Shown piece by piece: positions 2,166 to 56,395 of a DNA stretch of 64,000 bases. The translations under genes and the position numbers were made by a program. How positions within the stretch are numbered: position 1 is the first letter of the stretch; the number at the start of each line of letters is the position of its first letter. The DNA lies in NCBI GenBank assembly GCA_030583805.1, contig CP129476.1, positions 902,657 to 966,656 of the forward strand, given 5' to 3'. The stretch comes from Patescibacteria group bacterium (lineage in GTDB: Bacteria; Patescibacteriota; Patescibacteriia; SG8-24; DYFX01). The notes under the pieces are model-generated. The model saw only the letters and a program-made list of their open reading frames with translations. It did no database searches and was not told the DNA's origin.

Positions 2166-2491
2166 AGTCCTTGAACGGCGCACCTTCGTAAGAACTTGTG
2201 AATCGAGACGGGAACTCCTGGCTACCTACGGGACTGCTACTCTACTGCAGACACTACGAGGTCCAGTTCCCATCCCGGTTCGTAAGTCGAAGTCCATGTA
2301 GAAACGGACGCAATCCCTGACCGCAAGGCGGGGGCCACGACAGACGGACGGAACCTTGACAACTGAATACAGACGAAATGACGTCAAGATAGATTAGAAA
2401 TGGGTACAGTACATACAAGTACTGAATTGAATTGCAATTGAAAGCGAGAATGTAAGTGAAACTGCTGGAGCACATCGTGCTTCAGTAGTTG

Positions 2492-5600
<3,109 letters not shown>

Positions 5601-5781
5601 AACTACTGAAGCACGAGTGCTTCGAGCGAACGCAAGTTCGTAAGAAGGACTAGTACTTTCTACCCAAAAATCCGTCCGAGAGAGCAATCTTTCGGAATCG
5701 GAAACGTCATCATTCTGTATTCTTTGTTGTCCCGGCGAAAGCCGGTAAATCAAGGCGATACGATACCTAGTGGTAACGTTT

Positions 5782-5897
<116 letters not shown>

Positions 5898-5904
5898 TTT
5901 ATGT

Positions 5905-22614: not shown

Positions 22615-23477
22615 AGCTTGGCGAGTTCGGTTTTGAGCTGCTTCCGGGTCGCATCGAGCTCGGCGAGCGCGGCATCGGCCTCGCCCGGCTTGAACGGCTG
22701 GCTGTGCCACAGGAAGTTGTTCTCCATGTACGAGACGCCTTTGCCAGGGATGTTGTGGGTCAACACGCAAATCGGCTTGTCGAACAGGGATTTCGTGGCT
22801 TCAAATGCCGCCACGACCGCTTCGACGTCGTTGCCGTTGCACTCGACGACGTGCCAATTGAACGCCTCGTATTTATCGCGGAGCGGCTCGAGCGGCATGA
22901 TGTCCTCGGTGCGCCCGTCGATCTGGATGTTGTTGCGGTCGACGATGCAGACGAGATTATCGAGCCGGTTCTTGCCGGCGAAAAGCATCGCTTCCCAATG
23001 GAGGCCCGCTTCGTGCTCGCCGTCCGACGTTTGGCAAAAGACGCGCCACTTTTTCTTGTCCATCTTGCCGGCATAGGCGAGTCCCGCGGCCTGCGCGAGC
23101 CCGGCGCCCAGCGGGCCGGACGTCGTTTCGGAACCGGGAAGCTTGATGCGCTCCGGGTGTCCCTGGAGGCGCGTGCCGAGACGGCGCAGTGTTTTCAATT
23201 CTTCGACAGGGAAATAGCCCGCCTCGGCCATGGCGGCGTAGCGGATGGGGCAGGTGTGGCCGTTCGAGAGGATCAAGCGGTCGCGGTCCTCCCAATCGGG
23301 ATGCTTCGGGTCGTGATTCAGCGTGTGGAAATACAGCACGGCGAAGACGTCGGCCATGCCGAGCGGTCCGCCTTGGTGCCCGCTGCCGGCGTGCGCCACC
23401 GATTCGATCACGTGGCGCCGGAGCGTGTTGGCGATGAGCTCCAGCTCCTTGATGCGTTTGTCGCTGAGGTGTGACAT
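22611..23477 (-). CDS. transketolase, N-terminal (TPP-binding) subunit (split Tkt)
   Basis: GHQGGPLGMADV TPP motif; start MSHLSDKRIKE; -10 TATACT 11 nt before ATG (leaderless). Confidence 0.9.
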   Translation of the reverse strand: MSHLSDKRIKELELIANTLRRHVIESVAHAGSGHQGGPLGMADVFAVLYFHTLNHDPKHPDWEDRDRLILSNGHTCPIRYAAMAEAGYFPVEELKTLRRLGTRLQGHPERIKLPGSETTSGPLGAGLAQAAGLAYAGKMDKKKWRVFCQTSDGEHEAGLHWEAMLFAGKNRLDNLVCIVDRNNIQIDGRTEDIMPLEPLRDKYEAFNWHVVECNGNDVEAVVAAFEATKSLFDKPICVLTHNIPGKGVSYMENNFLWHSQPFKPGEADAALAELDATRKQLKTELAKL

Positions 23478-23487
23478 ATGATAAGTA

Positions 23488-23526: not shown

Positions 23527-23940
23527 ATGCGCAACGACGTGCATTTGGACGCTGGAACCCGCGTCATCAACACCAAAACTGGCAAGCTCGGGACGGTGGA
23601 GGAGCCGCACTGGTTGATTCGCGGCAGCATGCCGCGCGAAGAGATCACGATCGCCTACGACGGCGAGCAAGGAAGCTCCGCGACGCCGCGTCGCGACATC
23701 GAGTATCGCGGCAACGGTGTCCACGAAGCGGCGCTCGTGCGCTTCGGTCATGTGGCTCTGGCGGACTACGTCCCTGGAACTGAGATCGTTCACGTTGCCG
23801 AACAGCATCGCGGTACGGTCGTTGTCGATACGCATGGCCGATGCGGGACGGACGAAGTGCTGGTCAGACTGCATGGCTGTGACGGGGATCCGATGGCCGT
23901 CGACTGGCGCGCGATCCGTCCGTTCATGGGCGACAAATAA
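23527..23940 (+). CDS. hypothetical protein with two SH3/KOW-like repeats (137 aa)
   Basis: CAGGAGG SD; repeated GT(R/E)V...G.(L/R)GTV pattern; terminator downstream. Confidence 0.5.
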   Translation: MRNDVHLDAGTRVINTKTGKLGTVEEPHWLIRGSMPREEITIAYDGEQGSSATPRRDIEYRGNGVHEAALVRFGHVALADYVPGTEIVHVAEQHRGTVVVDTHGRCGTDEVLVRLHGCDGDPMAVDWRAIRPFMGDK

Positions 23941-23950
23941 AAACCGCCGA

Positions 23951-25702
23951 TCACTCGGCGGTCTTTTCTTTCATTTCGTCCGGAGCGACCAATCCGCCTT
24001 GCGAGCGGAGCAGCGCGGCATAGGCGCCGTTCTTCGCGACGAGCTCGTCGTGGCGTCCCTGTTCGACCACGCGGCCGCCCTTGATCACGAGGATGCGGTC
24101 GGCGTCGCGGACGGTGCGGAGGCGGTGCGCGATGATGAACGTCGTGCGTCCCTTCATCAGCGTTTCGAGCGAGCGCTGGATCTCTTCCTCGGTCTTGCTG
24201 TCGAGGTTCGAGGTCGGCTCGTCGAGAATCAGGATTTTCGGATTGCGCAGGAAGGCGCGTGCCAGGGCGACGCGCTGGCGCTGTCCGCCCGAAAGCTTGA
24301 GACCGCGTTCGCCGACCAGCGTGTCGTAGCCGTCCGGCAACTGGCTGATGAACGTATCGAGGCTGGCGAGGCGCGCCGCTTCGCGCACCTCTTCGTCGGT
24401 CGCGTTCGGCCGGCCGTAGCGGATGTTCTCGCCGAGCGATTCGTGGAGGAGCGGAAGGTCTTGCGGCACGAGGCCGATCTGCGCGCGCAGCGAGGTCAGG
24501 TTCACGTCCTTGGCGTCGATGCCGTCGTAGAGGATCGTGCCGCCTTGCGGCAGGTGATAGCGGCCGATCAGGTCGATCAAGGTCGTCTTGCCCTCGCCCG
24601 ATTCTCCGACCAACGCGACGCGTTCGCCTTGTTTTACGGCGAACGTCACGTCTTCGAGCACCGGGACGTCTTGGCGGTAGCGGTAGCGAACGCCCTGGAA
24701 CTCGATGCCGCCGCGAAGGTCGATCGCGCGTCCGGAGTCGTAGTCTTCTTCGGGCTGATCGAGAAGGTTGCGCACGTTCTTGTACGTCGAGGTGGCGCGG
24801 GTGAGGCTGCGCATCTGCCACTGCACCCAGCGGACGTAGTTGAAGATGCCCATGGTCAAGGCCGAGATCGTTACGAACTGGCCAAACGTGAATGCGCCGG
24901 AACGGACGTGCAGCAGCGCCGTCACGAAGACGAGCGCGGAACCGCCTTGGATGATGAGGTGCTGCCGGTTGAACTGGCGCTGATCGAAACGGTTGTCGGC
25001 GGCGACGTCTTTCAGCATGATCGCCTTGAGGTCGTTCAGACGCTCAGACAAGCGTTGCTCGCCCGACGTCGACTTCACGACCAAAATATTCTTGATCGCA
25101 TCCCAAGCGATCGAGCTGACTTCGCGCGCCGAAGCGCGCCAGGTCATCTGGCTCTTCAAGGCGGCCGGGAGCGTCAGTATTTTATCGGCAATCACGCCGG
25201 CGACGGTGATCGTGAGCATGAGGCCGATGCGCCAATCGAGCCAAGCCAAGTAACTCAGCGTGGCCAGGACCGCAAGGAATGCCGGAAACAGGTCGAAGAC
25301 GACGCCAGTAATCACGTCGCGCGTTTCGCCTTCGAACTCCGTCAGCTTTTCCGTGATATCGCCGCCGCGCTGGCCGTAATGGAACGAGAGCGGCTTGCGC
25401 ACGAGCTGAGCGACGGCTTCCAGTTTGAAGCGGGTGACGACCGCGTAGGAGATGTTGTTGCCGTAATGGTAGAGGAACCAGTGCAGGCGTTCCGTGCCGT
25501 GTCCGAGCGCGAACCACGCGGCAATGCCGCCGACGACGGCCCACACAGACCCGCCCTTTCCGGCCGCGTCGATTGCCCGTCCCAGCACGATCGGGGAGAG
25601 CAGCCCCATGCCCGCCGCCGCAACCGCAAGCAGGGAACACCAGATAATGGTGACCCGATAGGGCGCGAGAAGCGTCATGATGAAGCGGGCGAATGTTTTC
25701 AT
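23951..25702 (-). CDS. ABC exporter, fused permease/ATPase (MsbA-like)
   Basis: 6-TM N-domain; Walker A GESGEGKTT, signature LSGGQRQR, Walker B ILILDE. Confidence 0.85.
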   Translation of the reverse strand: MKTFARFIMTLLAPYRVTIIWCSLLAVAAAGMGLLSPIVLGRAIDAAGKGGSVWAVVGGIAAWFALGHGTERLHWFLYHYGNNISYAVVTRFKLEAVAQLVRKPLSFHYGQRGGDITEKLTEFEGETRDVITGVVFDLFPAFLAVLATLSYLAWLDWRIGLMLTITVAGVIADKILTLPAALKSQMTWRASAREVSSIAWDAIKNILVVKSTSGEQRLSERLNDLKAIMLKDVAADNRFDQRQFNRQHLIIQGGSALVFVTALLHVRSGAFTFGQFVTISALTMGIFNYVRWVQWQMRSLTRATSTYKNVRNLLDQPEEDYDSGRAIDLRGGIEFQGVRYRYRQDVPVLEDVTFAVKQGERVALVGESGEGKTTLIDLIGRYHLPQGGTILYDGIDAKDVNLTSLRAQIGLVPQDLPLLHESLGENIRYGRPNATDEEVREAARLASLDTFISQLPDGYDTLVGERGLKLSGGQRQRVALARAFLRNPKILILDEPTSNLDSKTEEEIQRSLETLMKGRTTFIIAHRLRTVRDADRILVIKGGRVVEQGRHDELVAKNGAYAALLRSQGGLVAPDEMKEKTAE

Positions 25703-25736
25703 AGACGATTCAATGTACAACGGAAAACGCCCCTGG

Positions 25737-25925
25737 TCAAGGCGCGTTTTGCGGCGTTTGCGCGTGTGGTTGCGGCGGGGGAGCGGTCGGGCTTTTCCAG
25801 TCCGGCGGTGCCCATTTCGGGGCGAGCGGAGCTTGGCGTGGTTCGGAAGAGCCTGCCGAAGCGACGAAGAGCATGATGGCGAGCACGGCGAGCGAGACCG
25901 GGACGAGTACGCGGGCGCGCTTCAT
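25737..25925 (-). CDS. candidate small secreted Pro-rich protein (62 aa)
   Basis: ATG 3 nt after rpe stop (GAATGATATGAAG); signal peptide VLVPVSLAVLAIMLFVASAG then APLAPKWAPPDWKSPTAPPPQP. Confidence 0.3.
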   Translation of the reverse strand: MKRARVLVPVSLAVLAIMLFVASAGSSEPRQAPLAPKWAPPDWKSPTAPPPQPHAQTPQNAP

Positions 25926-25926
25926 A

Positions 25927-26568
25927 TCATTCCAAATCGGTATCGGCGCGCAGCGCGTCGATGGCTTTGGCCGGCGCGCCGGAGTTGAAGACGGCGCTGC
26001 CGGAGACGAGGCGGTCGGCTCCGGCCTCCGCGAGTTCGCGGGCGATGCCGACCGCGACGCCGCCGTCGACTTCGATGACCAGATCGGGGAACTTTTCGCG
26101 CAGCGTCCGCACCTTCTCGATCGCGACGGGTTGAAACGCTTGTCCCATCCAGCCGGGGTGCACGCCCATGACCTGGACGACATCCGCTTCGGCGAGCGCT
26201 TCTTCGACGGATGCGACGCTCGTTTCCGGATTCAGTGAAACGCCGGCTTCCATGCCGTAGAGCTTGATCTGACGGAGCGCTTCGGCGACGTCCTCGACGG
26301 CTTCGGCATGCACGATCGCTCTTTGGCAGCCGGCCACGGACCAAGCATCGAGGCTCGCGAGCGGGTCCTTCACCATCAAGTGCACTTCAAAGGCCATCGG
26401 CAGGCGCATGAGATCGATGCGCTTCGGGTCGGCCCACGTCACGTTATCGACAAAAGCGCCGTCCATGACGTCGATTTGGATCGTTTCGCAGAGATCGGCA
26501 ACCGATTCCGCTTTGCGGCGGAATTCCTTCTCGTCCTTGGCCAGGATGGCCGGAATGATCTCAACCAT
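25927..26568 (-). CDS. rpe: ribulose-phosphate 3-epimerase
   Basis: PAILA..., DVMDG, VHLMV, GG(V/I) motifs of Rpe; 213 aa. Confidence 0.9.
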   Translation of the reverse strand: MVEIIPAILAKDEKEFRRKAESVADLCETIQIDVMDGAFVDNVTWADPKRIDLMRLPMAFEVHLMVKDPLASLDAWSVAGCQRAIVHAEAVEDVAEALRQIKLYGMEAGVSLNPETSVASVEEALAEADVVQVMGVHPGWMGQAFQPVAIEKVRTLREKFPDLVIEVDGGVAVGIARELAEAGADRLVSGSAVFNSGAPAKAIDALRADTDLE

Positions 26569-27007
26569 GGTCTTCGAATGCGGAAATTTTTCCGAGCCGG
26601 CGGGCGTGGCGCGGCTCGCTCGAGAACGGCGTCGCGAGGAAGGTGTCGACGATCGCTTTGACGTCGTCGGTCGACGTGTCCCAGCCGGAAAGGCAGAGCA
26701 CGTTGGCGTCGTTGTGCTCGCGCGTGCGCTTGGCCTGGACTTCGCTCGTGGCGGCGACGGCGCGGACGCCTTTCACTTTATTGGCCGCCATGCAGACGCC
26801 CTGGGCCGATCCGCACACCAGGATGCCGACGCCGCTCGGAGCGGCGGCTACGGCTTTCCCCACGGCAAACGCGAAATCCGGGTAATCGTCGGCCGGATCG
26901 AGCTCGACGTTGCCGAGATCTTGATATTCCTCGCCGGACTCCTCGAGATGGCGGGCGACGGCCTTTTTCAGCTCGTACCCCGCGTGGTCGGAACCGAGAT
27001 AGATCAT
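26561..27007 (-). CDS. rpiB: ribose-5-phosphate isomerase B
   Basis: MIYLGSDHAGYELK N-terminus and GILVCGS.QGVCMAANK RpiB/LacAB signature; 8-nt overlap with rpe. Confidence 0.9.
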   Translation of the reverse strand: MIYLGSDHAGYELKKAVARHLEESGEEYQDLGNVELDPADDYPDFAFAVGKAVAAAPSGVGILVCGSAQGVCMAANKVKGVRAVAATSEVQAKRTREHNDANVLCLSGWDTSTDDVKAIVDTFLATPFSSEPRHARRLGKISAFEDHG

Positions 27008-27071
27008 ATGCCGACAGTATAGCGTCCTTGACAAAACGGGCAAAATACAAAAAAGACCGTCGTGAAGACGG

Positions 27072-28013: not shown

Positions 28014-31000
28014 ATGGCCGCACCCAATTTTCCGCAACTCGAAGAGGAGCTTTTGAAGGACTGGGAGGAGAAACAGATCTTCAAAAAAACCCTGGAAAAG
28101 CCTGCTCCAAAAGGTGATTTTGTGTTCTTTGAAGGCCCCCCGACAGCCAACGGCAAGCCGGGCATTCATCACGTCCTGGCGCGCGCCTTCAAGGACCTGA
28201 TCCCGCGTTTCAAGACGATGCAGGGCTACCGCGTCGACCGCAAAGCCGGTTGGGACACGCACGGCTTGCCGGTTGAATTGGAAGTCGAGAAGCAGCTCGG
28301 TTTGAAGAACAAGAAAGACGTCGAAGCCTACGGCGTCGAGAAGTTCAACGAGAAGTGCCGCGAGTCCGTGTGGAAATACCTCGACGAGTGGGTGAAGATG
28401 ACGAAGCGCATGGGCTACTGGGTCGATTTGGAGCACCCGTACGTCACCTACAAAAACGAGTTCATCGAATCGGTGTGGAACATCGTCGCCGAAGTCGAGA
28501 AAAAGAATCTTCTCTACAAGGGCTACAAGATCGTCCCGTACTGCGCGCGTTGCGGCACGGCGCTTTCGTCGCACGAAGTCGCGCAGGGCTATAAGGAGGT
28601 GACGGAGACCTCGGTCTACGTCCGTTTCAAGGTGAAGGATGAAGCCAACACCTACTTCCTCGCTTGGACGACGACGCCTTGGACGCTGCCTTCCAACACC
28701 GCGCTTGCTGTCGGTGCCGATCTCGACTACGTCAAAGTCAAAAAGGGCGGAGACTTTTATTTTGTGGCGAAGGCTCGCGTGAGTTTGATGGAAGACGTCG
28801 AGATTGTGGAAGAGATGAAGGGCTCCGACCTCGTCGGTCAGCAATACGAGCCGCTCTACTCGTTCTTGCCGCTCGCGAAACCGGCGCACTGGGTCGTGGC
28901 AGGCTCCTTCGTTTCGACGACGGATGGCTCCGGCATCGTGCACATGGCTCCGTTCGGCGAGGACGACATGAACATCATCAAGGAACACGATTTCCCGGTG
29001 CTCATGACGGTCGGCTTGGACGGCGCGTTCATTCCGGAAATCACGCCGTGGGCCGGAAAATTCGTGAAGGACGTCGACGCGGAGATCGTGAAGGATCTCT
29101 CTGATCGCGGCCTCCTCTATAAGGAAGAGAAATACACGCACGACTATCCGTTCTGCTGGCGCTGCTCGACGCCGCTCCTGTATTACCCGAAAGACTCGTG
29201 GTTCATCGCCATGAGCAAGCTGCAGAAGGAATTGGTCGCCAACAACGAAAAGATCAACTGGGAACCGGCGCACATCAAGGAAGGCCGCTTCGGCGAATGG
29301 CTGCGCGGCATCAAGGACTGGGCGATTTCGCGCGACCGCTACTGGGGCACGCCGCTGCCGATTTGGGAGTGCGAGTGCGGCAAGACGCAGGCGATCGGTT
29401 CGCTGTCTGAGATGAACGAAAAGCGTTTCCGTAAGAACCGCTTCTTCATGGTGCGGCACGGACGCGCGATGTCGAATCAGAACGGCTACATCTCGTGCTG
29501 GCCGGAGCGTCCGGATCTCGAAGTCCATTTGACGCCGGAAGGCGAAGCTTCGGTGCGCGCGACGGCTGAGAGAATGAAAGAAGAGGGGATTGATCTCATT
29601 TTCGCTTCCGACTTGAAGCGCACGATGCAAACGGCGCAGCTCCTCGCCGAGATTACCGGAGCGGAATTGAAATTCGATCCGCGCCTGCGCGAGATCAACG
29701 TCGGCGTATTCAACGGCAAGAGCGAAGAAGAGTACAGCAAGCAGTTCGCCTCGCTCGAAGAAAAAATGACGAAGCCTGTCGAGGGCGGAGAATCGCTCGA
29801 AGACGTCCGCGCCCGCATGGTCGCGGCCGTGCTCGAATACGACCGCACGCACGAAGGCAAGAAGATCGCCATCGTGTCGCATGGCGACCCGCTTTGGGTG
29901 CTCGACGCCGCCATGAGCGGCGAGTGGAGCGCCGGCGTGCTCGAGAACTTCGGCGCGCGCTATCCGGACACGGGCAGCGGCCGCGAGTTCACCGTTCCGA
30001 ACTGGCCGTTCGACCACAAGGGCGCGCTCGACGTGCATAAGCCGTTCATCGACGCCGTCACGATCGCCTGCGACTGCGGCAAGGAAATGAAGCGCGTCCC
30101 CGAAGTCATGGACGTCTGGTTCGACTCGGGCGCCATGCCCTTCGCGCAGTGGCACTATCCTTTTGAGAACAAAGAGAAAATCGACGGCGGCACGGGCTAT
30201 CCGGCCGACTTCATCTCCGAAGCGATCGACCAGACGCGCGGTTGGTTCTACACGCTCCTCGCCGTCTCGACGCTCCTCGGCCGCGAACCGGCCTACAAGA
30301 ACGTCATCTGCCTCGGCCACCTGCTCGACGCCAAGGGCCAGAAGATGTCGAAGTCGAAAGGCAACGTCGTGAACCCGTGGGACATGTTCGCCAAGTACGG
30401 CGCCGACGCGGTGCGCTTCCACCTCTTCACCGTGAACCAGCCGGGCGAAGCCAAGCGCTTCGACGAGAAGGAAGTCGACGGCGTGATCAAGAAACTCTTC
30501 CTGATTCTTTGGAACGTCCAGTCGTTCTGGAAGATGTATGCGGGGGAGAAGGCGAAAGCGCAATCCGAGGCTCCCAAACCGGCGCACACGCTCGACGCTT
30601 GGGTGTTGTCCGAACTCGCATCCGTGACCGAAAAGGTCACGACGAATCTTGAGCGTTTCGACGTCGTCACGGCCGGCCGCGCGATCGCCGATTTCGCGAA
30701 CGACCTCTCGACCTGGTACCTGCGCCGCAGCCGCGATCGTTTCAAGAACGGCACGGATGAAGAAAAAGCCTCGGCCGTCGCGACGCTCGGACACGCGCTG
30801 CTGACCGTCTCCAAGCTCCTCGCGCCGTTCACGCCGCACGTGGCGGAAGGCTTGTACCGCGAAGTCGGCGGCGAGAAGGAATCGGTGCATCTCGACGCTT
30901 GGCCGGAGGCCGGAACGATCGACGAGAACCTGCTCTTGCAGATGAAACGCGTGCGCCAGGCTTGCTCGATGGGTCTTGAGAAGCGCGCCAAGGCCGGCAT

Positions 31001-31424
31001 CAACGTCCGCCAGGTGCTCTCGAAGCTGGAGATCGAGGCAGAATGGACGTTTGAGGACTGGATGCTCGAGATCGTCGCCGAGGAAGTGAACGTCAAGAAA
31101 GCGACGTACGAAAAAGACGACGAATTCGAAGTCGAGCTCGATACGGAGCTCACTCCCGAACTCAAGCGCGAGGGCGCCGCCCGCGAGCTCACGCGCGCCG
31201 TGAACGCGCTCCGCAAGGAAGCGAAGCTCACGATTCAGGACCGCATCACGCTGCTTGTCGAAGGTTTGGACGGCTTCTGGAAAGAGGTCATGGACGCGCA
31301 CGGCGCGCCCGTGCTCGCCGACGTTAAAGCTGACGCGGTGAAAGAAAGTCTGGACGGCGCCCTCGCGACGGGGGAGGTCGAAGCGGACGGCCAGGAGCTC
31401 AAAATCGGCATCGCCAAGAACTGA
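28014..31424 (+). CDS. ileS: isoleucine--tRNA ligase (type 2) carrying an inserted histidine-phosphatase (PGM-family) domain
   Basis: HHVLARAFKD (HIGH-like), editing domain, WAISRDRYWGTP, KMSKS; insert FFMVRHGRA...IVSHGD between CECG and CDCG zinc-knuckle halves; -10 TATATT 8 nt before ATG. Confidence 0.95.
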   Translation: MAAPNFPQLEEELLKDWEEKQIFKKTLEKPAPKGDFVFFEGPPTANGKPGIHHVLARAFKDLIPRFKTMQGYRVDRKAGWDTHGLPVELEVEKQLGLKNKKDVEAYGVEKFNEKCRESVWKYLDEWVKMTKRMGYWVDLEHPYVTYKNEFIESVWNIVAEVEKKNLLYKGYKIVPYCARCGTALSSHEVAQGYKEVTETSVYVRFKVKDEANTYFLAWTTTPWTLPSNTALAVGADLDYVKVKKGGDFYFVAKARVSLMEDVEIVEEMKGSDLVGQQYEPLYSFLPLAKPAHWVVAGSFVSTTDGSGIVHMAPFGEDDMNIIKEHDFPVLMTVGLDGAFIPEITPWAGKFVKDVDAEIVKDLSDRGLLYKEEKYTHDYPFCWRCSTPLLYYPKDSWFIAMSKLQKELVANNEKINWEPAHIKEGRFGEWLRGIKDWAISRDRYWGTPLPIWECECGKTQAIGSLSEMNEKRFRKNRFFMVRHGRAMSNQNGYISCWPERPDLEVHLTPEGEASVRATAERMKEEGIDLIFASDLKRTMQTAQLLAEITGAELKFDPRLREINVGVFNGKSEEEYSKQFASLEEKMTKPVEGGESLEDVRARMVAAVLEYDRTHEGKKIAIVSHGDPLWVLDAAMSGEWSAGVLENFGARYPDTGSGREFTVPNWPFDHKGALDVHKPFIDAVTIACDCGKEMKRVPEVMDVWFDSGAMPFAQWHYPFENKEKIDGGTGYPADFISEAIDQTRGWFYTLLAVSTLLGREPAYKNVICLGHLLDAKGQKMSKSKGNVVNPWDMFAKYGADAVRFHLFTVNQPGEAKRFDEKEVDGVIKKLFLILWNVQSFWKMYAGEKAKAQSEAPKPAHTLDAWVLSELASVTEKVTTNLERFDVVTAGRAIADFANDLSTWYLRRSRDRFKNGTDEEKASAVATLGHALLTVSKLLAPFTPHVAEGLYREVGGEKESVHLDAWPEAGTIDENLLLQMKRVRQACSMGLEKRAKAGINVRQVLSKLEIEAEWTFEDWMLEIVAEEVNVKKATYEKDDEFEVELDTELTPELKREGAARELTRAVNALRKEAKLTIQDRITLLVEGLDGFWKEVMDAHGAPVLADVKADAVKESLDGALATGEVEADGQELKIGIAKN

Positions 31425-31487
31425 CGCCAAGCGCCCGTTGACAAACGGGCGCTTTTGGTATGAGATTCTTCGCGGAGGAACCGTAAG

Positions 31488-31856
31488 ATGATCACGCATC
31501 CGAACGCTCATTTCGTCCTGTACGCGGACCGTGTAGATAAGACGTTGCACGTCCACCTCGCCACGACCGGCGACTTGGAGCAGCTCCGTGAGCAGATGGT
31601 CGACCTGGGCGAGCCGATCGCGGCCCACCTCGTCACGTTCGACGGCTTCAACGAGCGCGAGCAGCTCGTCGCCTTCGACCGTGCGCAAAGAGCGGGAAGC
31701 GCGGACTACGCCGAGATCATGTGCATGGAGCGCCTGCTGCTTCTCGGCGTTGCTGCCGGACGCGAGCTCGGCGCCCGGGAAGCGCGCGCCACGCGATCGC
31801 AAGAGGTGCTCGCGACGATGCGCCTGCCGTCACCCGAAGATGCCGCTACCGATTGA
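31488..31856 (+). CDS. hypothetical protein (122 aa)
   Basis: GGAGG SD 8 nt before ATG. Confidence 0.5.
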   Translation: MITHPNAHFVLYADRVDKTLHVHLATTGDLEQLREQMVDLGEPIAAHLVTFDGFNEREQLVAFDRAQRAGSADYAEIMCMERLLLLGVAAGRELGAREARATRSQEVLATMRLPSPEDAATD

Positions 31857-31904
31857 CCCGCCGCCATTGCGCGCGCGGGTTTTTTTCTTTATTGTGAATC
31901 CACT

Positions 31905-32183
31905 ATGCAAGACATCGGCAAAAAGTACCGCAAGATCGTCTTCGTCTGCACGAACCAGAAGGAGAACGGAAAAGAATGCTGCGCCATGAAAGGCGGGAGG
32001 GAATTGCACGCGAAGCTCAAAGAAGAAATGAAGAAAACGGACCTGACAATCCGCGTTTCCAAGTCCGGCTGTCTCGACCGCTGTTCCGAAGGCGTCACGG
32101 TGACGGTCCAGCCCGACGACGCGTGGTACGGCAACGTGACGGAAGCGGACATCCCCGAGCTCGTGAAGAAAATCGCTTCGTAA
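31905..32183 (+). CDS. thioredoxin-like [2Fe-2S] ferredoxin
   Basis: VFVCTNQ...ECCA...SGCLDRC Cys ligand pattern; 92 aa. Confidence 0.7.
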   Translation: MQDIGKKYRKIVFVCTNQKENGKECCAMKGGRELHAKLKEEMKKTDLTIRVSKSGCLDRCSEGVTVTVQPDDAWYGNVTEADIPELVKKIAS

Positions 32184-32216
32184 AAAGAAAAGCCGCCCGA
32201 TGACCGGGCGGTTTTT
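32184..32216. terminator. bidirectional intrinsic terminator (aaaagccgcccg-auga-ccgggcgguuuuu)
   Basis: A-run/GC hairpin/U-run between convergent genes. Confidence 0.65.
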
Positions 32217-32217
32217 G

Positions 32218-32523
32218 TTACGCGGGCTGGGTGAACGGCGCGGCAATGTAGACGCCGCAGGCCGGAAGACCCTCCGTCGGGACACCGGCGGCGCGGAACG
32301 CCTCGATGCTCAGATGCTGGGTGTGGCGGAATCCGCAGGTTTCGACGGCGACGCCGAACGTTCCGGGATCGTCGGTTGCCTCGATCGGCACGAGCGCGAC
32401 GAAGCCGTCGAACGGTTCGCGCAGCGGGCCGAACGCGCGGGCGATGTTTTCGACCTCGCGTCCAACCCCGGCCACGACCGCATCCCGAATCTCATGCAAG
32501 CGTACGGGAGAAAATGTCATCAT
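32218..32523 (-). CDS. hypothetical protein (101 aa)
   Basis: ORF between terminator and kinase-like genes. Confidence 0.4.
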   Translation of the reverse strand: MMTFSPVRLHEIRDAVVAGVGREVENIARAFGPLREPFDGFVALVPIEATDDPGTFGVAVETCGFRHTQHLSIEAFRAAGVPTEGLPACGVYIAAPFTQPA

Positions 32524-32564
32524 AGGGTTCTTTCCTAATGCTGCTGCGCCTGAGTATGCGCTTT

Positions 32565-32996
32565 TTAAGCCTTTTTGTCAAGACCGGCTTGGCGCCAGGA
32601 TGCCATGGGCGCGCGTGCCCGCTTCGGGTCGCCCGACTCTCCGTTTCCGGATCCGCGAAGCTGCTCGATCAAGCCGTCGTAGCCCGCCGTCATCATGACT
32701 TCTTGGCCGAAATTCTCGATCTGCATGGCCTGTTCCTCGCTGACGCCTTCGGTCGAGAGGCCGAAATCGATGACGAAGACGTCGCCCGTATCGGCAATCA
32801 TGACGTTTTTGGGGTGAAAGTCCCGGTGCCAAAACTTTTCGCGCTTTGAAAGTGCGGCAAAGGCTTGGATCGCCTTGAACTGATCTTCCGTCACGATCGC
32901 GGACTGCTTGCGGAAACACGTGTCCCACATCGCCTTCTCGATTTCTTTGTGGCGCCCCTGCTGGTAGTACTGCGCCATTCCGGTGCGTCGAATCAA
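32565..32996 (-). CDS. protein-kinase-like fold, C-lobe half (HRDFHPKN catalytic loop, IDFG)
   Basis: APH/RIO/Kdo-kinase-like catalytic motifs; starts at ATGA overlap with N-lobe ORF. Confidence 0.6.
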   Translation of the reverse strand: MIRRTGMAQYYQQGRHKEIEKAMWDTCFRKQSAIVTEDQFKAIQAFAALSKREKFWHRDFHPKNVMIADTGDVFVIDFGLSTEGVSEEQAMQIENFGQEVMMTAGYDGLIEQLRGSGNGESGDPKRARAPMASWRQAGLDKKA

Positions 32997-33538
32997 AAAA
33001 TCTTCAACGTAGGAATCGTCGGGGTGAGCCGAAAGTCCTCAACGTCCTTTTCGGAAAGATGCCCGCTGGCCACGCCTTCCGTGCGAAGGTAATTTTCCAT
33101 CAAGAGCCTCCAAAGCGTTTTGCCCTGGACGCGCTCCATCACCAGCACTTCGCTGCCGCTCTCGCGCGTGTATCCGATCGGCTCCGGCACGCGCACGCGC
33201 GGCGCCTTCGGATACTTCGTGCGCCAGCCTTCGGTCATCTGCCACGCGCGCATCTGCAATTCGAATTCGGTTTCGAGATCGTTCAGCACGCCGGGGTGCG
33301 GCCTGTCGGTGTAGGCGAACTTTGAAACGAATTTCTTGAGAGCGGGGTCCGCGGTGTGCGTCATGACTTCCGCGGTCGTGCCGGCGCCGAGGCGGGTTTG
33401 GTTCGATCGATCAAGAAACGCTCTCGAAAAAGCGTCTAAGACGCGCTCCTTGTCTTCGAGCCGCATCTCCGGCCGTTCAAACGGCGAAAGACGCACTTTC
33501 TTTTCGGGTTTCTCCTGCATATGCGGGGAGCGTAGCAC
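32993..33538 (-). CDS. protein-kinase-like fold, N-lobe half (through hinge VLVMERVQG)
   Basis: ends 90 aa before expected catalytic loop, which is in next ORF in another frame. Confidence 0.55.
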   Translation of the reverse strand: MLRSPHMQEKPEKKVRLSPFERPEMRLEDKERVLDAFSRAFLDRSNQTRLGAGTTAEVMTHTADPALKKFVSKFAYTDRPHPGVLNDLETEFELQMRAWQMTEGWRTKYPKAPRVRVPEPIGYTRESGSEVLVMERVQGKTLWRLLMENYLRTEGVASGHLSEKDVEDFRLTPTIPTLKIF

Positions 33539-33566
33539 GCCGCAGAGCGAAAAAAAAGTCCGCGAG

Positions 33567-33923
33567 TCACTTGATCACGCGGAGAAGAGGGGAGGCGGGA
33601 TGTCCGAAAAACTGGAGGAATTGGGCGAGCGGAAGATGCACGGTTCGAGGATCGCCCGGCCAGGAGAAGAAGACGAGGCGGTCGTCGTGGCGGTAGGTGA
33701 TCGCGTCACACCCGCACGACTCCAGCGCGGTCTCGCAGAAGATGCGGACGCGATCTTCGAGCAGCGCGCGCTGCTCCAGCGCTCTTCGTTCACGGCGTTC
33801 CGCGCAGTCTTCGAAGGGGGCGTCGGTTTGGCGCATGCGTTTCTCCGCGGGGCTGATCGGCCGAGGCGGGGCGCTCCTCCAGCCGATTTCCAGTTCGAAG
33901 GCCTCGTATTCCTGCTCATCCAT
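33567..33923 (-). CDS. hypothetical protein (118 aa)
   Basis: ORF only. Confidence 0.4.
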   Translation of the reverse strand: MDEQEYEAFELEIGWRSAPPRPISPAEKRMRQTDAPFEDCAERRERRALEQRALLEDRVRIFCETALESCGCDAITYRHDDRLVFFSWPGDPRTVHLPLAQFLQFFGHPASPLLRVIK

Positions 33924-33999
33924 GAGGACCTCCTCGGAAGAAGCTTAGTGCCAAAAAAACGAAGTTGTCAAGGCTGAAAACCGGGGGTAGACTGAACCC

Positions 34000-34548
34000 A
34001 TGATTGCCTTTCTCAAAGGGTTGGTTCTGGAAAAAGGCCGCGAGCATGTCATTCTGCTCGTCGGCGATATCGGCTATCTCGTGAAGGTACCGACGCACCT
34101 TTTGGCTGCCCTGGAAAAGGGGAACGAGGCGCGGCTCTATACCCACCAGATCATCCGCGAGGACGCGAACGATCTGGTCGGCTTCGCGACGGTCGCCGAA
34201 CTCGAACTCTTCTGGAAACTGATCACGGTCTCCGGCGTCGGCCCCAGGATGGCCTTGCAGCTTTTGTCGCTCGGCACGGTCGAGAGCGTGCGCGGCGCCG
34301 TCGAGCGCGGCGACGTTTCCTATCTTGAAAGCGCCCAAGGCGTCGGCCGCAAGACGGCGCAGCGCGTCGTACTCGAACTCAAGGGCAAGCTCGTTACGGA
34401 CGAGGAGCCCGGCGAGGGAGGCGACGAGGCCGTTTCGGCGCTTGAGAACCTCGGGTATGCCCGCCACAAGGCGCGGGAGATCGTGAAAGATATCGAAGGC
34501 ACGACGGAAGAGCGCATCAAGATCGCGCTTAGAATGCTCTCGCGCTAA
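34000..34548 (+). CDS. ruvA: Holliday junction DNA helicase RuvA
   Basis: MIAFLKG..., two HhH motifs (VSGVGPRMALQLL, ESAQGVGRKTAQRVVLEL). Confidence 0.9.
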   Translation: MIAFLKGLVLEKGREHVILLVGDIGYLVKVPTHLLAALEKGNEARLYTHQIIREDANDLVGFATVAELELFWKLITVSGVGPRMALQLLSLGTVESVRGAVERGDVSYLESAQGVGRKTAQRVVLELKGKLVTDEEPGEGGDEAVSALENLGYARHKAREIVKDIEGTTEERIKIALRMLSR

Positions 34549-41885: not shown

Positions 41886-42049
41886 ACTTGTGTATCCACA
41901 GGGCTTAGCAGGGCTCTGCGGAAAAACAAAAACAAATGGGGGGGAGTCTTTACAATTTTTTGGCTCGAATTAGCGGTTTTGATACCGACCGCCAGGTTGA
42001 TTTCGTGCTCCCTGGCGGTTTTTCGTACAAAAAGACCCTTCTTAAGGCG

Positions 42050-50837: not shown

Positions 50838-51455
50838 TTAGGCTGCGAGACGCTTCGGGCGCCAGGAGGCGTATGCGCACGCGAGGCCGATGAAGGCGCC
50901 GACGAACGCTCCGGCCAAGGCCGCTCGCGCCGGCGGAATGCGCGTTTCCGCGATAACCGGCTCGGAGGCGCTCACGATAAAGAGCGTTTCCTGTTCGGGA
51001 GAAAGGACGAGCGTCCGTGCGCGTTCAGAAACGTGGCGCGAAAGGCTCGCATACAACTTGGCGGCCGTTTCGGCATCGGACGCCGCATAGGCAACGACGA
51101 CGTTCTGGCTCGAATATTTTTTTCCTCGGAAAACGCGCCCGGAAATCGCCCTGATTTCGGAGTCGGTTCGCTGGATTCCGGCGTCGGCGAAGACTTCTTT
51201 GACGACGGAAGGCGTCGAGAGCCAGCTGATCATCGTGTCGGCGACGAGCTCCGAAGCGCGCAGGGCATAGTAGCCGTCGTACGAGTAATCGGACGTTTCC
51301 TGGCGCGCTTGCTGCGAGATCGTAAACGCGAATGAAACGTTGGTGCGCGGCGGCAAGGTTCCGGCGACGGCGGCGAAGAGCAGTGCGGCGGCCGCGGCGG
51401 AAGCGAGGACGGCGCGAACCGGATGCGAGAAGAATCCGACGAGGTGCGTTTTCAT
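50838..51455 (-). CDS. Wzz-like chain-length determinant-type protein (two terminal TM helices)
   Basis: TM near both ends with periplasmic middle; ATGA coupling to upstream GT4. Confidence 0.5.
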   Translation of the reverse strand: MKTHLVGFFSHPVRAVLASAAAAALLFAAVAGTLPPRTNVSFAFTISQQARQETSDYSYDGYYALRASELVADTMISWLSTPSVVKEVFADAGIQRTDSEIRAISGRVFRGKKYSSQNVVVAYAASDAETAAKLYASLSRHVSERARTLVLSPEQETLFIVSASEPVIAETRIPPARAALAGAFVGAFIGLACAYASWRPKRLAA

Positions 51456-52606: not shown

Positions 52607-52607
52607 A

Positions 52608-55879: not shown

Positions 55880-56395
55880 GTTTCAAGCGAGCCTGTAAGC
55901 CGAATTCTGTCTTCCGACGTTGCCGCCGGAATGACGGTCATCTCTCTCGTCCCAACGTTGCCATTGGGATCAAGCAAGCTACCTAATTTGCTCTTGCACC
56001 GGATCGGTGTTTACCCCGGAGCCGATCACTCGACTGCCGCGTGGGCTCTTACCCCACGATTTCAACCTTACCTCACTCCCGAAGGAGGTCTCTCCATTGA
56101 AGGATGAGGCGGTATGTTTCTGTTGCTCCCCGTGCAAGCCTCGCGGCTCTCATGGGGCATCCTCCGAAGAGGACCCGCACGCCCGACGAATCGGGCTTCC
56201 CTGGGCTTGGCGTATCCGCACCATCTCTCGTTACCCGAGACATGATGTGATCCGTTGTTCCCGGTTGCCGTTAGCAACGATCTCTGAATCATGGATTGCT
56301 CCATGAAACGGTGTTCGGACTTTCCTCGATCCGCCTATTTTGGGCGGGTCGCGACCATCCGGCTCCCTTAAAACAGCTCCCAGGTACGATGTACC
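55880..56395 (-). ncRNA. rnpB: RNase P RNA (bacterial type A-like, ~500 nt)
   Basis: minus-strand GAGGAAAGTCCGAAC (CR-I/P4), GGTAAGAGCCCACG, GGTAAACACCGATCCGGTGCAAGAGCAAAT, ACAGAATTCGGCTTACAGG (CR-V/P4 3' strand). Confidence 0.75.

What the first reader, a model, noticed from the sequence alone, without database searches (positions are those of the whole stretch)
29420..30015. Histidine-phosphatase (PGM-family) domain inserted inside the zinc knuckle of isoleucyl-tRNA synthetase
In type-2 IleRS the segment WxISRxRxWG.P-[CxCG]-~40 aa-[CxCG]-xxxRVxDVxDxWFDSG is short. Here the two halves ([35 protein letters not shown] ... [35 protein letters not shown]) are separated by ~200 extra residues. 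The insert carries both catalytic signatures of the histidine phosphatase superfamily (FFMVRHGRAMSNQNG = RHG motif; IAIVSHGDPLW = second catalytic His) and a typical PGM/SixA/PhoE-like fold order. The reading frame is continuous with no stop or frameshift, so it would be expressed as one 1,136-aa polypeptide. I am not aware of any aminoacyl-tRNA synthetase with a fused or inserted phosphomonoesterase. The position, a loop between zinc ligands near the catalytic core, would let the domain fold independently. Possible roles are speculative: hydrolysing a phosphorylated metabolite or aminoacyl-adenylate analogue, antibiotic (mupirocin-like) defence, or regulatory moonlighting.
Basis: partly seen in the sequence, partly recalled or inferred. 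Interest (0 to 1): 0.85.

Follow-up and report, generated by a model that had tools for sequence, protein, structure and literature searches.

The report
Active phosphatase domain nested inside IleRS
The isoleucyl-tRNA synthetase gene in this window really does carry a complete, apparently active histidine-phosphatase enzyme spliced into one of its surface loops; at least 80 species-level genomes, mostly of ultra-small Patescibacteria, share this design, and related bacteria keep the same phosphatase as a separate gene right next to the synthetase gene, so the two enzymes are linked for a reason nobody has yet described.

Summary
ORF 28014-31424 (+) encodes a 1,136-aa type-2 IleRS. A complete His_Phos_1 domain (Pfam E=6e-36, residues 478-634) is nested between the two Cys pairs of the CP3 zinc-knuckle subdomain. 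It is neither a misassembly nor a one-off. 119 of the 120 closest database homologs have the same architecture, as do 80 of 80 checked species-level genomes, mostly labelled Patescibacteria. The phosphatase catalytic set (R481, H482, R536, E/D560, H623) is invariant in all 120 insert-bearing homologs. Against the closest ortholog, dN/dS on the insert (0.07) equals that of the synthetase body. AlphaFold models the whole protein confidently (pLDDT 92, pTM 0.82). New here: free-standing members of the same phosphatase subfamily lie directly upstream of insert-free ileS genes in 7 of 8 evaluable contexts, within a conserved argS-phosphatase-ileS block. The enzymes are therefore linked both as neighbours and as a fusion. 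The domain resembles the small PhoE/GpgP/PspA/CobC phosphatases, not true phosphoglycerate mutases. The substrate is unknown. Many related IleRS lack the phosphatase, so it is accessory. No publication was found. Verdict: real, lineage-wide, undescribed bifunctional synthetase; a new variant of a known kind.

The parts
28014..31424 (+). ileS ORF, 1,136 aa: type-2 isoleucyl-tRNA synthetase with a nested phosphatase
   Evidence: TIGR00392 scores 901 bits (cut-off 621). The best solved relatives are P. megaterium IleRS2 (8c8w) and T. thermophilus IleRS (1ile).
28161..28172 (+). Class I signature in its non-canonical form, G50-I-H-H53 (GXHH instead of HXGH)
   Evidence: The motif type is described and linked to mupirocin hyper-resistance in IleRS2 by PMC10485003.
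28587..29150 (+). CP1 editing domain (aa ~192-379), including the WTTTPWTLP motif, H310 and D318
   Evidence: It matches isolated IleRS editing-domain structures 1wk8, 1wny and 1ue0 at query residues 192-379. The motif residues are invariant in alignment A1.
29370..29378 (+). First Cys pair of the CP3 zinc knuckle (C453-E-C455; CxC here, CxxC in most homologs)
   Evidence: All four Cys are kept in 104 of 121 sequences. The CP3/zinc assignment comes from PMC7191050.
29415..30029 (+). Inserted segment (aa ~468-672) that is absent from insert-free IleRS2
   Evidence: Alignment with P0069. Gap between residues 474 and 485 of 8c8w. dN/dS is 0.071 against L001.
29445..29915 (+). His_Phos_1 (PF00300) match, aa 478-634
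   Evidence: E=5.7e-36. The insert model has pLDDT 93.5. Foldseek TM is 0.75-0.78 to GpgP, PspA and PhoE.
29454..29462 (+). R481-H482-G483: phosphate-binding Arg and the nucleophilic His
   Evidence: R481 and H482 are present in all 120 insert-bearing homologs.
29619..29621 (+). R536, the second phosphate-binding Arg (SDLxRTxxTA motif)
   Evidence: Present in 120 of 120 insert-bearing homologs.
29691..29693 (+). E560, the presumed general acid
   Evidence: E in 111 and D in 10 of the 121 aligned sequences.
29880..29882 (+). H623, the second catalytic His (SHGDPLW)
   Evidence: Present in 120 of 120 insert-bearing homologs.
30069..30077 (+). Second Cys pair of the CP3 zinc knuckle (C686-D-C688)
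30342..30356 (+). KMSKS loop (K777-M-S-K-S781)
30594..31418 (+). Anticodon-binding domain and the type-2 C-terminal domain (Anticodon_1 861-1002, DUF5915 956-1135)

Best explanation
SUMMARY. The gene encodes a two-enzyme polypeptide. It is a fully equipped type-2 IleRS (probably the housekeeping one) of a probable Patescibacteria (CPR) bacterium. A complete, catalytically competent branch-1 histidine phosphatase is nested in the CP3 zinc-knuckle subdomain, which is a structurally variable surface module.

SHOWN
- The synthetase keeps its signature motifs (GXHH form of HIGH, KMSKS), its CP1 editing motifs and its anticodon-binding domain.
- The phosphatase keeps the whole catalytic set.
- The insert is under purifying selection as strong as that on the synthetase.
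- The insert is predicted to fold as a normal PhoE/GpgP/PspA-like domain.
- The same phosphatase subfamily exists as a stand-alone gene directly upstream of insert-free ileS, in a conserved argS-phosphatase-ileS-recO neighbourhood. Insert-bearing loci have argS abutting ileS and no separate copy in the flanks.

INFERRED
- The fusion is the internalised form of an operon partnership. One parsimonious route is a duplication into CP3 followed by differential loss, because inserted, split and phosphatase-free states are interleaved among IleRS lineages.
- The phosphatase works through its own active site: H482 attacks a phosphomonoester, R481, R536 and H623 hold the phosphate, and E560 protonates the leaving group.
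- IleRS charges and proofreads tRNA-Ile in the usual way.

MOST LIKELY ROLE (inference, about 55-60%)
- It is a soluble small-molecule or nucleotide phosphomonoesterase. Its expression and stoichiometry are tied to ileS, and it is docked rigidly on the synthetase.
- It is dispensable for aminoacylation itself, because many related IleRS lack it.
- The substrate is not identified.
For: - Architecture and family matches.
- Recurrence: 119 of 120 homologs at 48-94% identity; 80 of 80 genome loci with a single internal copy.
- Catalytic residues invariant in 120 of 120 insert-bearing homologs; Cys4 kept in 104 of 121.
- dN/dS: insert 0.071, N-terminal part 0.062, C-terminal part 0.073. GC3 is equal.
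- Structure: full model pLDDT 91.7 and pTM 0.82, with the insert at 90-97. Insert model pLDDT 93.5. Foldseek best hits are GpgP, PspA and PhoE at TM 0.75-0.78. The full model matches IleRS2 8c8w and 1ile.
- Split form: free-standing homologs P0121, P0129, P0132, P0134, P0138, P0125 and P0247 lie directly upstream of insert-free ileS. Five more cases were found starting from the IleRS side.
- Shared synteny (argS, recO) between split and inserted loci.
- CP3 is a variable subdomain with a different topology in each solved IleRS (PMC7191050).
- Accessory nature: 59 of 65 evaluable type-2 ileS loci have no nearby phosphatase, and P0069 has none.
- Fusions onto translation-related genes are common in this phylum.
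Against: - No biochemical data exist, and the substrate class is a guess.
- High pTM and well-ordered linkers suggest a fixed interface. The linkage survives in two genetic forms and in two deeply divergent IleRS2 types. Some lineages carry 2-4 tandem copies inside IleRS. All of this fits a role directly tied to the synthetase reaction or to tRNA at least as well as it fits mere co-expression.
- I could not obtain model coordinates, so the position of the phosphatase pocket relative to the synthetic site, the editing site and the tRNA path is unknown.
- Whether genomes without the insert carry the phosphatase elsewhere is unknown.
- Whether this is the only ileS in the genome was not checked, because only 64 kb is available.
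- The taxon labels of the closest relatives are inconsistent (Baltobacteraceae, Eisenbacteria, Gammaproteobacteria), so the assignment to Patescibacteria is probable rather than proven.
Confidence: 0.6

Rival explanations
1. The phosphatase acts in cis on the aminoacylation system. It might heal tRNA-Ile 3' ends that carry a 2'- or 3'-phosphate so that A76 can be charged. Or it might hydrolyse a product or by-product of adenylate chemistry (PPi, AMP, or a phosphorylated inhibitor) at the synthetase.
For: - The genetic linkage to ileS is tight and takes two forms.
- The domain is predicted to be rigidly docked (pTM 0.82).
- Some IleRS carry tandem copies.
- The same subfamily is fused to TsaC, another ATP -> acyl-AMP + PPi enzyme of tRNA biology.
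- Other Patescibacterial TsaC fusion partners include RNA-end and nucleic-acid repair enzymes: CPDase/LigT, MGMT and a glycosylase.
- One archaeal sulfate adenylyltransferase-histidine phosphatase fusion is on record (PMC11237513).
Against: - Many closely related IleRS work without any nearby phosphatase.
- TsaC fusions in this phylum are promiscuous, and only about 5 clusters carry His_Phos.
- The domain shows only generic PhoE/CobC-type motifs and no extra basic surface was identified.
- To my knowledge, branch-1 histidine phosphatases are not known to hydrolyse PPi or RNA ends.
- TsaC does not bind tRNA ends.
Confidence: 0.25
2. The domain is no longer an enzyme. It serves as a structural or ligand-sensing (allosteric) module of IleRS.
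For: The domain is inserted about 14 residues before the WFDSG segment of the catalytic core. It is predicted to be docked.
Against: - The full catalytic set is invariant in 120 of 120 homologs down to 48% overall identity.
- The free-standing orthologous genes keep the same residues.
- Selection is as strong as on the synthetase.
Confidence: 0.07
3. The phosphatase is an antibiotic-defence device that inactivates an IleRS-directed natural inhibitor.
For: The synthetase body carries the GXHH motif that is associated with mupirocin hyper-resistance. That implies selection by IleRS inhibitors in this lineage.
Against: - By my own knowledge, mupirocin has no phosphate ester.
- The insert occurs equally in canonical HXGH-type IleRS2.
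- No resistance-family model is met: MupA and MupB score 827 and 786 bits against cut-offs of 1900.
- No defence genes were seen in the neighbourhood.
Confidence: 0.05
4. The apparent insertion is an assembly chimera or a frameshift artefact.
For: None was found.
Against: - The same in-frame architecture occurs in independent assemblies from NCBI, JGI, ENA and Logan and in 80 genome loci.
- There is no compositional break.
- dS is about 0.5-0.8 with low dN against an independent ortholog.
Confidence: 0.01

Closest known systems
Type-2 isoleucyl-tRNA synthetase (IleRS2), including the GXHH hyper-resistant form (P. megaterium IleRS2 8c8w; T. thermophilus IleRS 1ile; Brkic et al. 2023, PMC10485003)
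   Same: - Best sequence and fold match for the synthetase body.
- A Zn-type Cys4 motif in CP3, as in the T. thermophilus enzyme.
- The GXHH signature, KMSKS, the CP1 editing motifs and the type-2 C-terminal domain.
   Different: CP3 holds a roughly 200-residue enzyme domain where solved IleRS2 have about 10 residues between the Cys pairs. Both Cys pairs are CxC in the window clade.
Small branch-1 histidine phosphatases: PhoE (1h2e/1ebb), glucosyl-3-phosphoglycerate phosphatase GpgP (4pz9/4qih), PspA phosphoserine phosphatase (4ij5), alpha-ribazole phosphatase CobC
   Same: The fold, the size (about 190 aa), the RHG...R...E...H catalytic set and the GGES...R motif.
   Different: - It scores below every curated family cut-off: CobC 80 against 163, PspA 71 against 350, GpmB 74 against 261.
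- It forms its own subfamily (SSWPE and SHGDPLW motifs) that is found next to or inside ileS.
- It is nested in another enzyme.
Cofactor-dependent phosphoglycerate mutase (dPGM) and SixA
   Same: The superfamily and the catalytic His/Arg core.
   Different: - TIGR01258 scores 35 bits against a cut-off of 82, and only the first 104 of 245 profile positions align.
- SixA scores 30 against a cut-off of 74.5.
- The match to dPGM covers only the first 104 of 245 profile positions, and TM normalised to dPGM structures is only about 0.54-0.65.
Bifunctional RNase H / acid phosphatase (NCBIfam NF005567, PRK07238; the M. tuberculosis Rv2228c type, by my own knowledge)
   Same: A CobC/PhoE-like histidine phosphatase is covalently joined to a nucleic-acid enzyme without an obvious shared substrate. 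The insert matches its phosphatase half (75 bits).
   Different: That fusion is end-to-end, not nested. The partner is RNase H, not an aaRS. The score is below the cut-off of 326.
IleRS with an N-acetyltransferase domain (NCBIfam NF040702, ileS_w_GNAT) and, more generally, the nested CP1 editing domain of class Ia synthetases
   Same: These are precedents for an extra catalytic domain carried by IleRS, and for domain-in-domain insertion in the Rossmann fold.
   Different: The accessory fold is different (GNAT against His_Phos). The window protein scores 307 against a cut-off of 1999. I found no paper on either architecture.
TsaC(Sua5/YrdC)-His_Phos fusions of Patescibacteria (P0225, P0231, P0395-P0397; found here)
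   Same: The same phosphatase subfamily and motifs (196 bits to the insert HMM), attached to another adenylate-forming enzyme of tRNA biology.
   Different: This is a C-terminal fusion and it is rare (about 5 clusters). TsaC in this phylum is fused to many unrelated enzymes.
Histidine-phosphatase domain of yeast TFIIIC subunit tau55 (PMC4490372, and bioRxiv 10.1101/2020.04.17.046805 as listed)
   Same: A histidine-phosphatase domain embedded in tRNA-related machinery with an unclear substrate.
   Different: It is eukaryotic, it sits in a transcription factor, and it is unrelated in context. I cite it as an analogy only.

Membership tests
Isoleucine--tRNA ligase (TIGR00392 / class Ia aaRS) | The whole-protein score is above the curated cut-off. 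| tested here: met
   901.5 bits against a cut-off of 621.4.
Isoleucine--tRNA ligase (TIGR00392 / class Ia aaRS) | Class I signature motifs (HIGH-type and KMSKS). | tested here: met
   G50-I-H-H53 is the GXHH variant documented as functional in IleRS2 (PMC10485003). K777-MSKS is present.
Isoleucine--tRNA ligase (TIGR00392 / class Ia aaRS) | A CP1 editing domain with its conserved Thr-rich, His and Asp residues. | tested here: met
   It matches the isolated editing-domain structures 1wk8, 1wny and 1ue0. W218-TTTPWTL, H310 and D318 are invariant in A1.
Isoleucine--tRNA ligase (TIGR00392 / class Ia aaRS) | Isoleucylation and editing activity. | not testable with these tools
   This needs enzyme assays.
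Type-2 IleRS (IleRS2) | Closest to IleRS2 structures, with the type-2 C-terminal domain instead of the bacterial zinc-binding domain. | tested here: met
   8c8w scores 868 bits and 1ile 822 bits, against 328-332 bits for IleRS1. DUF5915 is present at the C-terminus.
MupA/MupB mupirocin-resistance IleRS (NF000257, NF000258) | The score is above the curated cut-off. | tested here: not met
   827 and 786 bits against a cut-off of 1900.
Histidine phosphatase superfamily, branch 1 (PF00300) | The score is above the Pfam gathering threshold. | tested here: met
   124.5 bits in the full protein and 129.3 bits for the insert alone, against 21.7.
Histidine phosphatase superfamily, branch 1 (PF00300) | The catalytic core: RHG Arg and His, a second Arg, an acidic proton donor, and a second His. 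| tested here: met
   R481, H482, R536, E560 and H623 are present, and they are invariant (E or D at 560) in 120 of 120 insert-bearing homologs.
Histidine phosphatase superfamily, branch 1 (PF00300) | The PGM-like alpha/beta fold. | tested here: met
   The AF2 insert model has pLDDT 93.5. Foldseek gives probability 1.00 and TM 0.75-0.78 to 4qih, 4ij5 and 1h2e. This rests on a predicted structure, not a solved one.
Histidine phosphatase superfamily, branch 1 (PF00300) | Phosphomonoesterase or mutase activity through a phospho-His intermediate. | not testable with these tools
   This needs biochemistry.
2,3-BPG-dependent phosphoglycerate mutase (TIGR01258) | The score is above the cut-off and the match runs the full length. 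| tested here: not met
   34.8 bits against 81.7, with only profile positions 2-104 of 245 aligned.
Alpha-ribazole phosphatase CobC (TIGR03162) | The score is above the cut-off. | tested here: not met
   80.5 bits against 162.9.
Phosphoserine phosphatase PspA (NF045917) / GpmB (NF002901) / SixA (TIGR00249) | The score is above the cut-off. | tested here: not met
   71 against 350, 74 against 261, and 30 against 74.5.
CP3 zinc knuckle of T. thermophilus-type IleRS | Four Cys in two pairs flanking the CP3 loop. | tested here: met
   C453/C455 and C686/C688 are present. All four are kept in 104 of 121 homologs and are lost together in about 9. The CP3 zinc motif is described in PMC7191050.
CP3 zinc knuckle of T. 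thermophilus-type IleRS | The four Cys converge on one metal site with the phosphatase looped out. | not testable with these tools
   The tools return no model coordinates. What can be seen is that both beta-hairpins are predicted with pLDDT of at least 90.

The most novel reading that the evidence does not exclude
The phosphatase is a functional part of the isoleucylation machinery: a third catalytic site on an aaRS, besides the synthetic and editing sites. It would act on tRNA-Ile ends, or on a phosphorylated product, by-product or inhibitor of the adenylation reaction. Patescibacteria would keep it attached to IleRS, either as a translationally coupled partner or as a CP3 insert, for that reason.
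Probability: 0.22. Interest if true: 0.85.

Novelty: new variant of a known kind. Interest (0 to 1): 0.64.

Why it matters
- Aminoacyl-tRNA synthetases are among the best-studied enzymes. Accessory domains on them have repeatedly turned out to carry new biology, such as editing, signalling and complex assembly.
- This case is an entire, selectively maintained enzyme of another superfamily, nested in the catalytic body of a bacterial IleRS (probably the housekeeping one). It occurs across a large part of the Candidate Phyla Radiation.
- There is an independent genomic signal that the two activities belong together, because the same phosphatase is the operon neighbour of ileS elsewhere.
- It offers a concrete and cheap biochemical question: which phosphoester, and does it affect charging?
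- It is a natural example of domain-in-domain insertion at a permissive site (CP3), which is useful for aaRS engineering.
- It is a marker trait for the evolution of IleRS2, including the GXHH/HXGH forms, in organisms that cannot be cultured alone.
- If the phosphatase turns out to be unrelated to translation, the case still documents how genome-reduced bacteria package housekeeping enzymes into essential genes.

Tried and rejected
1. Misassembly or chimera: rejected.
2. 'It is a phosphoglycerate mutase, SixA or CobC': rejected on curated cut-offs.
3. Genome scan with an insert-only alignment (A2): it failed because no stretch was conserved enough. I repeated it with the flanks included (A3). 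As a result, only the 80 loci that were kept are verified to contain the insert. The full 596 are not.
4. Single origin of the insertion: a quick NJ analysis does not support one clean clade. Inserted, split and phosphatase-free IleRS are interleaved, and all three states occur in both GXHH and HXGH types. No ML tree software was available, so the number of events is unresolved.
5. TsaC-His_Phos fusions as evidence for shared adenylate/PPi chemistry: downgraded after I found that TsaC in this phylum is fused to MGMT, TruB, CPDase, a glycosylase, GNAT and NUDIX.
6. 'Free' phosphatases that cluster among the inserts: at least P0141 is a contig-sized fragment of an IleRS gene.
7. Universal adjacency: rejected. 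59 of 65 evaluable type-2 ileS loci have no nearby phosphatase, and one low-scoring free-standing member (P0264) is followed by NUDIX, not ileS.
8. Remnant of the RNR gene that sits downstream of ileS in relative L171: not found in the window.
9. AFDB (afdb50) fold search: the library was unavailable.
10. Literature: no paper combines IleRS or aaRS with histidine phosphatase, His_Phos_1, phosphoglycerate mutase insertion or Patescibacteria. The AARS Online review lists no phosphatase module. The Patescibacteria and pyrophosphatase search gave nothing usable for the PPi idea.
11. Geometry of the phosphatase pocket relative to the IleRS active sites: this could not be done because no coordinates are returned.
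Full report
**1. Observation**

The window holds one uninterrupted ORF, 28014..31424 on the + strand, of 1,136 codons.

Pfam finds the following:
- tRNA-synt_1 in two stretches (E=7.5e-120).
- His_Phos_1 at residues 478-634 (E=5.7e-36, 124.5 bits against a gathering score of 21.7).
- Anticodon_1 at 861-1002.
- DUF5915 at 956-1135.

The NCBIfam equivalog for ileS scores 901 bits against a cut-off of 621.

In frame they correspond to residues 470-667.

Two comparisons define the extra segment as about residues 468-672 (29415-30029), roughly 193-205 aa:
- The insert-free relative P0069 has CxxC, about 37 residues, then CxxC. The query has 230 residues between the equivalent Cys.
- In P. megaterium IleRS2 the insertion falls between residues 474 and 485.

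GC content and GC3 are continuous across the junctions.

**2. It is neither an artefact nor a singleton**

Of the 120 best database homologs (48-94% identity; sources NCBI, JGI, ENA and Logan), 119 carry PF00300 together with the IleRS domains.

All 80 loci that were kept cover the whole junction-plus-insert query. A local tblastn shows the order IleRS N-half, phosphatase, IleRS C-half in each of them, with no second phosphatase copy in the 6-kb flanks.

Where source names exist, they are mostly Patescibacteria/Parcubacteria lineages: Yanofsky-, Zambryski-, Nomura-, Wolfe-, Magasanik-, Uhr-, Komeili-, Nealson- and Campbellbacteria, and Paceibacterota.

The labels of the nearest relatives of the window are inconsistent (Baltobacteraceae, Eisenbacteria, 'Gammaproteobacteria'). 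Together with the 60.6% GC, this makes the taxonomic assignment of the window itself probable rather than certain.

**3. Both enzymes look functional**

Synthetase:
- KMSKS, the CP1 editing motifs (WTTTPWTLP, H310, D318) and the anticodon-binding domain are invariant or nearly so.
- The HIGH position reads G50-I-H-H53. This is the non-canonical GXHH form that Brkic et al. showed to be catalytically tolerated only in IleRS2 and to confer mupirocin hyper-resistance.

Phosphatase:
- R481, H482, R536, E593, R601 and H623 are present in all 120 insert-bearing homologs.
- Position 560 is E in 111 sequences and D in 10.
- N488 is kept in 105.

Selection: between the window gene and its closest ortholog L001 (86% nucleotide identity), dN/dS is 0.071 for the insert, 0.062 for the N-terminal synthetase part and 0.073 for the C-terminal part.

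Structure:
- AlphaFold2 models the full protein with mean pLDDT 91.7 and pTM 0.82, and the insert region is at 90-97.
- The insert alone gives pLDDT 93.5 and pTM 0.91.
- Foldseek places the insert with GpgP (4qih), PspA (4ij5/6) and PhoE (1h2e) at TM 0.75-0.78.
- The whole model matches IleRS2 8c8w and 1ile.
- A pTM of 0.82 for a protein of this size suggests a defined docking of the insert. I could not inspect coordinates.

**4. What kind of phosphatase**

By sequence, the nearest solved relatives are PspA phosphoserine phosphatase, a riboflavin-pathway histidine-family phosphatase (9mmh), GpgP, PhoE and alpha-ribazole phosphatase.

The insert fails every curated NCBIfam cut-off:
- CobC: 80 against 163.
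- dPGM_arch: 74 against 225.
- GpmB: 74 against 261.
- PspA: 71 against 350.
- pgm_1: 35 against 82.
- SixA: 30 against 74.5.

It is therefore a member of the superfamily and of the small-phosphatase branch, but of none of the named families. 'PGM' and 'SixA' should not be used for it.

**5. Where it is inserted**

The segment between [14 protein letters not shown] and DVWFDSG is the CP3 subdomain. In T. thermophilus IleRS, CP3 carries a zinc motif. Its topology differs between the C. albicans, T. thermophilus and S. aureus enzymes (PMC7191050), so it is a permissive surface module.

All four Cys are kept in 104 of 121 homologs and are lost together in about nine. In the window clade both pairs are CxC rather than CxxC.

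**6. The key new result: a split form**

A search of 1.84 billion representative proteins with the insert alone returned two kinds of hit: IleRS-embedded domains, and free-standing proteins of 187-205 aa at 38-45% identity.

I looked up the genomic context of nine free-standing proteins.
- Seven lie directly upstream of an insert-free type-2 ileS of 931-968 aa, on the same strand, with gaps from a 10-nt overlap to about 120 nt. These are P0121, P0129, P0132, P0134, P0138, P0125 and P0247.
- For P0240 the contig ends before the next gene can be identified.
- P0264, the lowest-scoring member, is followed by a NUDIX gene.

In every case with enough upstream sequence, argS lies upstream. recO often lies downstream of ileS.

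The same argS...ileS...recO synteny surrounds the insert-bearing genes, where argS abuts ileS with nothing in between. The loci are therefore orthologous, and the phosphatase is either between argS and ileS or inside ileS.

Working from the IleRS side, I sampled 80 type-2 ileS metagenome loci.
- 5 of 65 evaluable loci have the same phosphatase subfamily directly upstream (188-230 bits to an HMM built from inserts).
- 1 has it 2.8 kb upstream.
- 59 have none nearby.
- The 120 nearest relatives of a split-type IleRS all lack PF00300 and are again Patescibacteria.

The phosphatase therefore follows ileS, but ileS does not need the phosphatase.

**7. Evolution**

In quick neighbour-joining and identity analyses, the inserted, split and phosphatase-free IleRS are interleaved.
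- The window enzyme is closer to P0069 (none), L143 (none) and L098 (split) than to another block of insert-bearing enzymes in 200 of 200 bootstraps.
- That other block is closer to split enzymes than to the window group in 200 of 200 bootstraps.
- All three states occur in both the GXHH-type and the canonical HXGH-type IleRS2.
- The domain tree shows a mostly 'inserted' half and a mostly 'free-standing' half, with the window clade on the free-standing side.

A single ancient duplication into CP3 followed by differential loss, together with allele replacement between lineages, would explain this most simply. Repeated insertion at the one permissive site is not excluded. These trees are crude, and the number of events is unresolved.

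**8. Other architectures of the same subfamily**

- Some IleRS carry two His_Phos copies in tandem (P0169; P0241, 1,419 aa, on contigs up to 1.06 Mb) or four His_Phos stretches by Pfam (three recovered with my insert HMM) (P0217).
- About five clusters are TsaC(Sua5/YrdC)-His_Phos fusions that share the SSWPE and SHGxPLW motifs.
- TsaC, like IleRS, makes an acyl-adenylate and PPi, which is suggestive.
- However, in Patescibacteria TsaC is also fused to MGMT (dozens of clusters), TruB, CPDase/LigT, a DNA glycosylase, GNAT and NUDIX. Fusion alone is therefore weak evidence of shared chemistry in this phylum.

**9. Mechanism**

Shown: the evidence in sections 3 and 6 shows two intact catalytic units in one chain, equal purifying selection on both, and a conserved genetic partnership.

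Inferred:
- The phosphatase works by the standard phospho-histidine mechanism. H482 is the nucleophile. R481, R536 and H623 hold the phosphate. E560 is the general acid.
- IleRS charges and edits normally.

My best estimate (about 0.6) is an autonomous phosphomonoesterase acting on a soluble substrate. Its production, stoichiometry and possibly location are tied to IleRS, and it is accessory to aminoacylation.

The main rival (about 0.25) is a cis-acting role on tRNA-Ile ends or on a product, by-product or inhibitor of adenylation. The dual linkage, the predicted rigid docking and the tandem copies favour this rival. The many phosphatase-free relatives and the generic active site count against it.

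A non-catalytic module (about 0.07), antibiotic defence by the phosphatase (about 0.05) and an artefact (about 0.01) are unlikely.

**10. Known or new**

I found no paper that mentions this architecture. The AARS Online overview lists no phosphatase module.

The sequences are public and are automatically annotated. NCBI often names them only 'class I tRNA ligase family protein'.

There are precedents for the general theme:
- The nested CP1 editing domain.
- NCBIfam's ileS_w_GNAT.
- The RNase H/acid-phosphatase fusion (NF005567).
- The histidine-phosphatase domain of TFIIIC tau55.

I therefore rate it a new variant of a known kind. It is real, widespread and unstudied. It deserves a moderately high interest score, mainly because the neighbour-or-insert pattern makes a functional link between a phosphatase and IleRS directly testable.

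Noticed in passing
window 28161-28172: The IleRS class I signature reads GIHH (the GXHH form), not HXGH. This form was linked to mupirocin hyper-resistance in IleRS2 (PMC10485003). Among the 121 aligned sequences (the query and 120 homologs), 111 have GIHH. Across Patescibacterial loci both GXHH and HXGH types occur at the same argS-ileS-recO locus.
   Followed up: partly
window 29370-29378 and 30069-30077: Both CP3 Cys pairs are CxC in the window clade, whereas most homologs have CxxC. About nine homologs have lost most or all of the Cys.
   Followed up: partly
P0169, P0241 (1,419 aa; ENA contigs up to 1.06 Mb), P0217: Some IleRS carry two or four tandem His_Phos copies at the insertion site (P0217: four Pfam stretches, three recovered with my HMM).
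   Followed up: partly
L170 977-2140 (P0231); also P0225 and P0395-P0397: These are TsaC (threonylcarbamoyl-AMP synthase)-His_Phos fusions that use the same phosphatase subfamily. Patescibacterial TsaC is also fused to MGMT, TruB, CPDase/LigT, methylpurine glycosylase, GNAT and NUDIX.
   Followed up: partly
L173 2384-4048 and 4130-5275: In one split-type genome (GCA_964372685.1), the ileS downstream of the phosphatase is called as two ORFs of 554 and 381 aa, separated by 82 nt containing stop codons. This could be a frameshift, a pseudogene, a sequencing error or a truly split IleRS.
   Followed up: no
window 2487-5606 and 5781-5899: A 23S rRNA (3,120 nt against a 2,925-position model, so about 200 nt extra) is followed by a 5S rRNA. 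No 16S rRNA was detected anywhere in the 64-kb window, including the 2.4 kb upstream, so the rRNA genes may be unlinked.
   Followed up: no
window 55880-56370 (-): RNase P RNA class A spans 491 nt against a 367-position model, which implies sizeable expansions.
   Followed up: no
window 41936-48892 (+): A 2,318-aa ORF has no Pfam match. Several other long ORFs (23717-25876, 51332-52672, 57803-59308, 61070-63346) also have none.
   Followed up: no
window 31430-34000: The 2.5 kb between ileS and ruvA has no ORF with a Pfam hit. In the syntenic insert-free relative L171, a ribonucleotide reductase gene occupies this position, and no remnant of it is detectable here.
   Followed up: partly
window 25927-27043 (-): Ribulose-phosphate 3-epimerase and RpiB (pentose-phosphate enzymes) lie just upstream of ileS on the opposite strand. 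They are separated from ileS by a 305-aa protein that resembles DUF5701.
   Followed up: no
L001 vs window: The closest genome locus (91% aa identity over the CP3-insert query; 92% over the whole protein and 86% nucleotide identity over ileS) shares only ileS and one 404-nt piece (window 23076-23478) at the nucleotide level. The flanks have diverged or rearranged. Its record is labelled 'uncultured Gammaproteobacteria', which is probably a binning label.
   Followed up: no
PMC11237513 (literature): A single archaeal (Sulfolobus) fusion of sulfate adenylyltransferase, another PPi-releasing adenylyl-transfer enzyme, with a histidine phosphatase is reported. It is a weak parallel to the IleRS and TsaC cases.
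   Followed up: no
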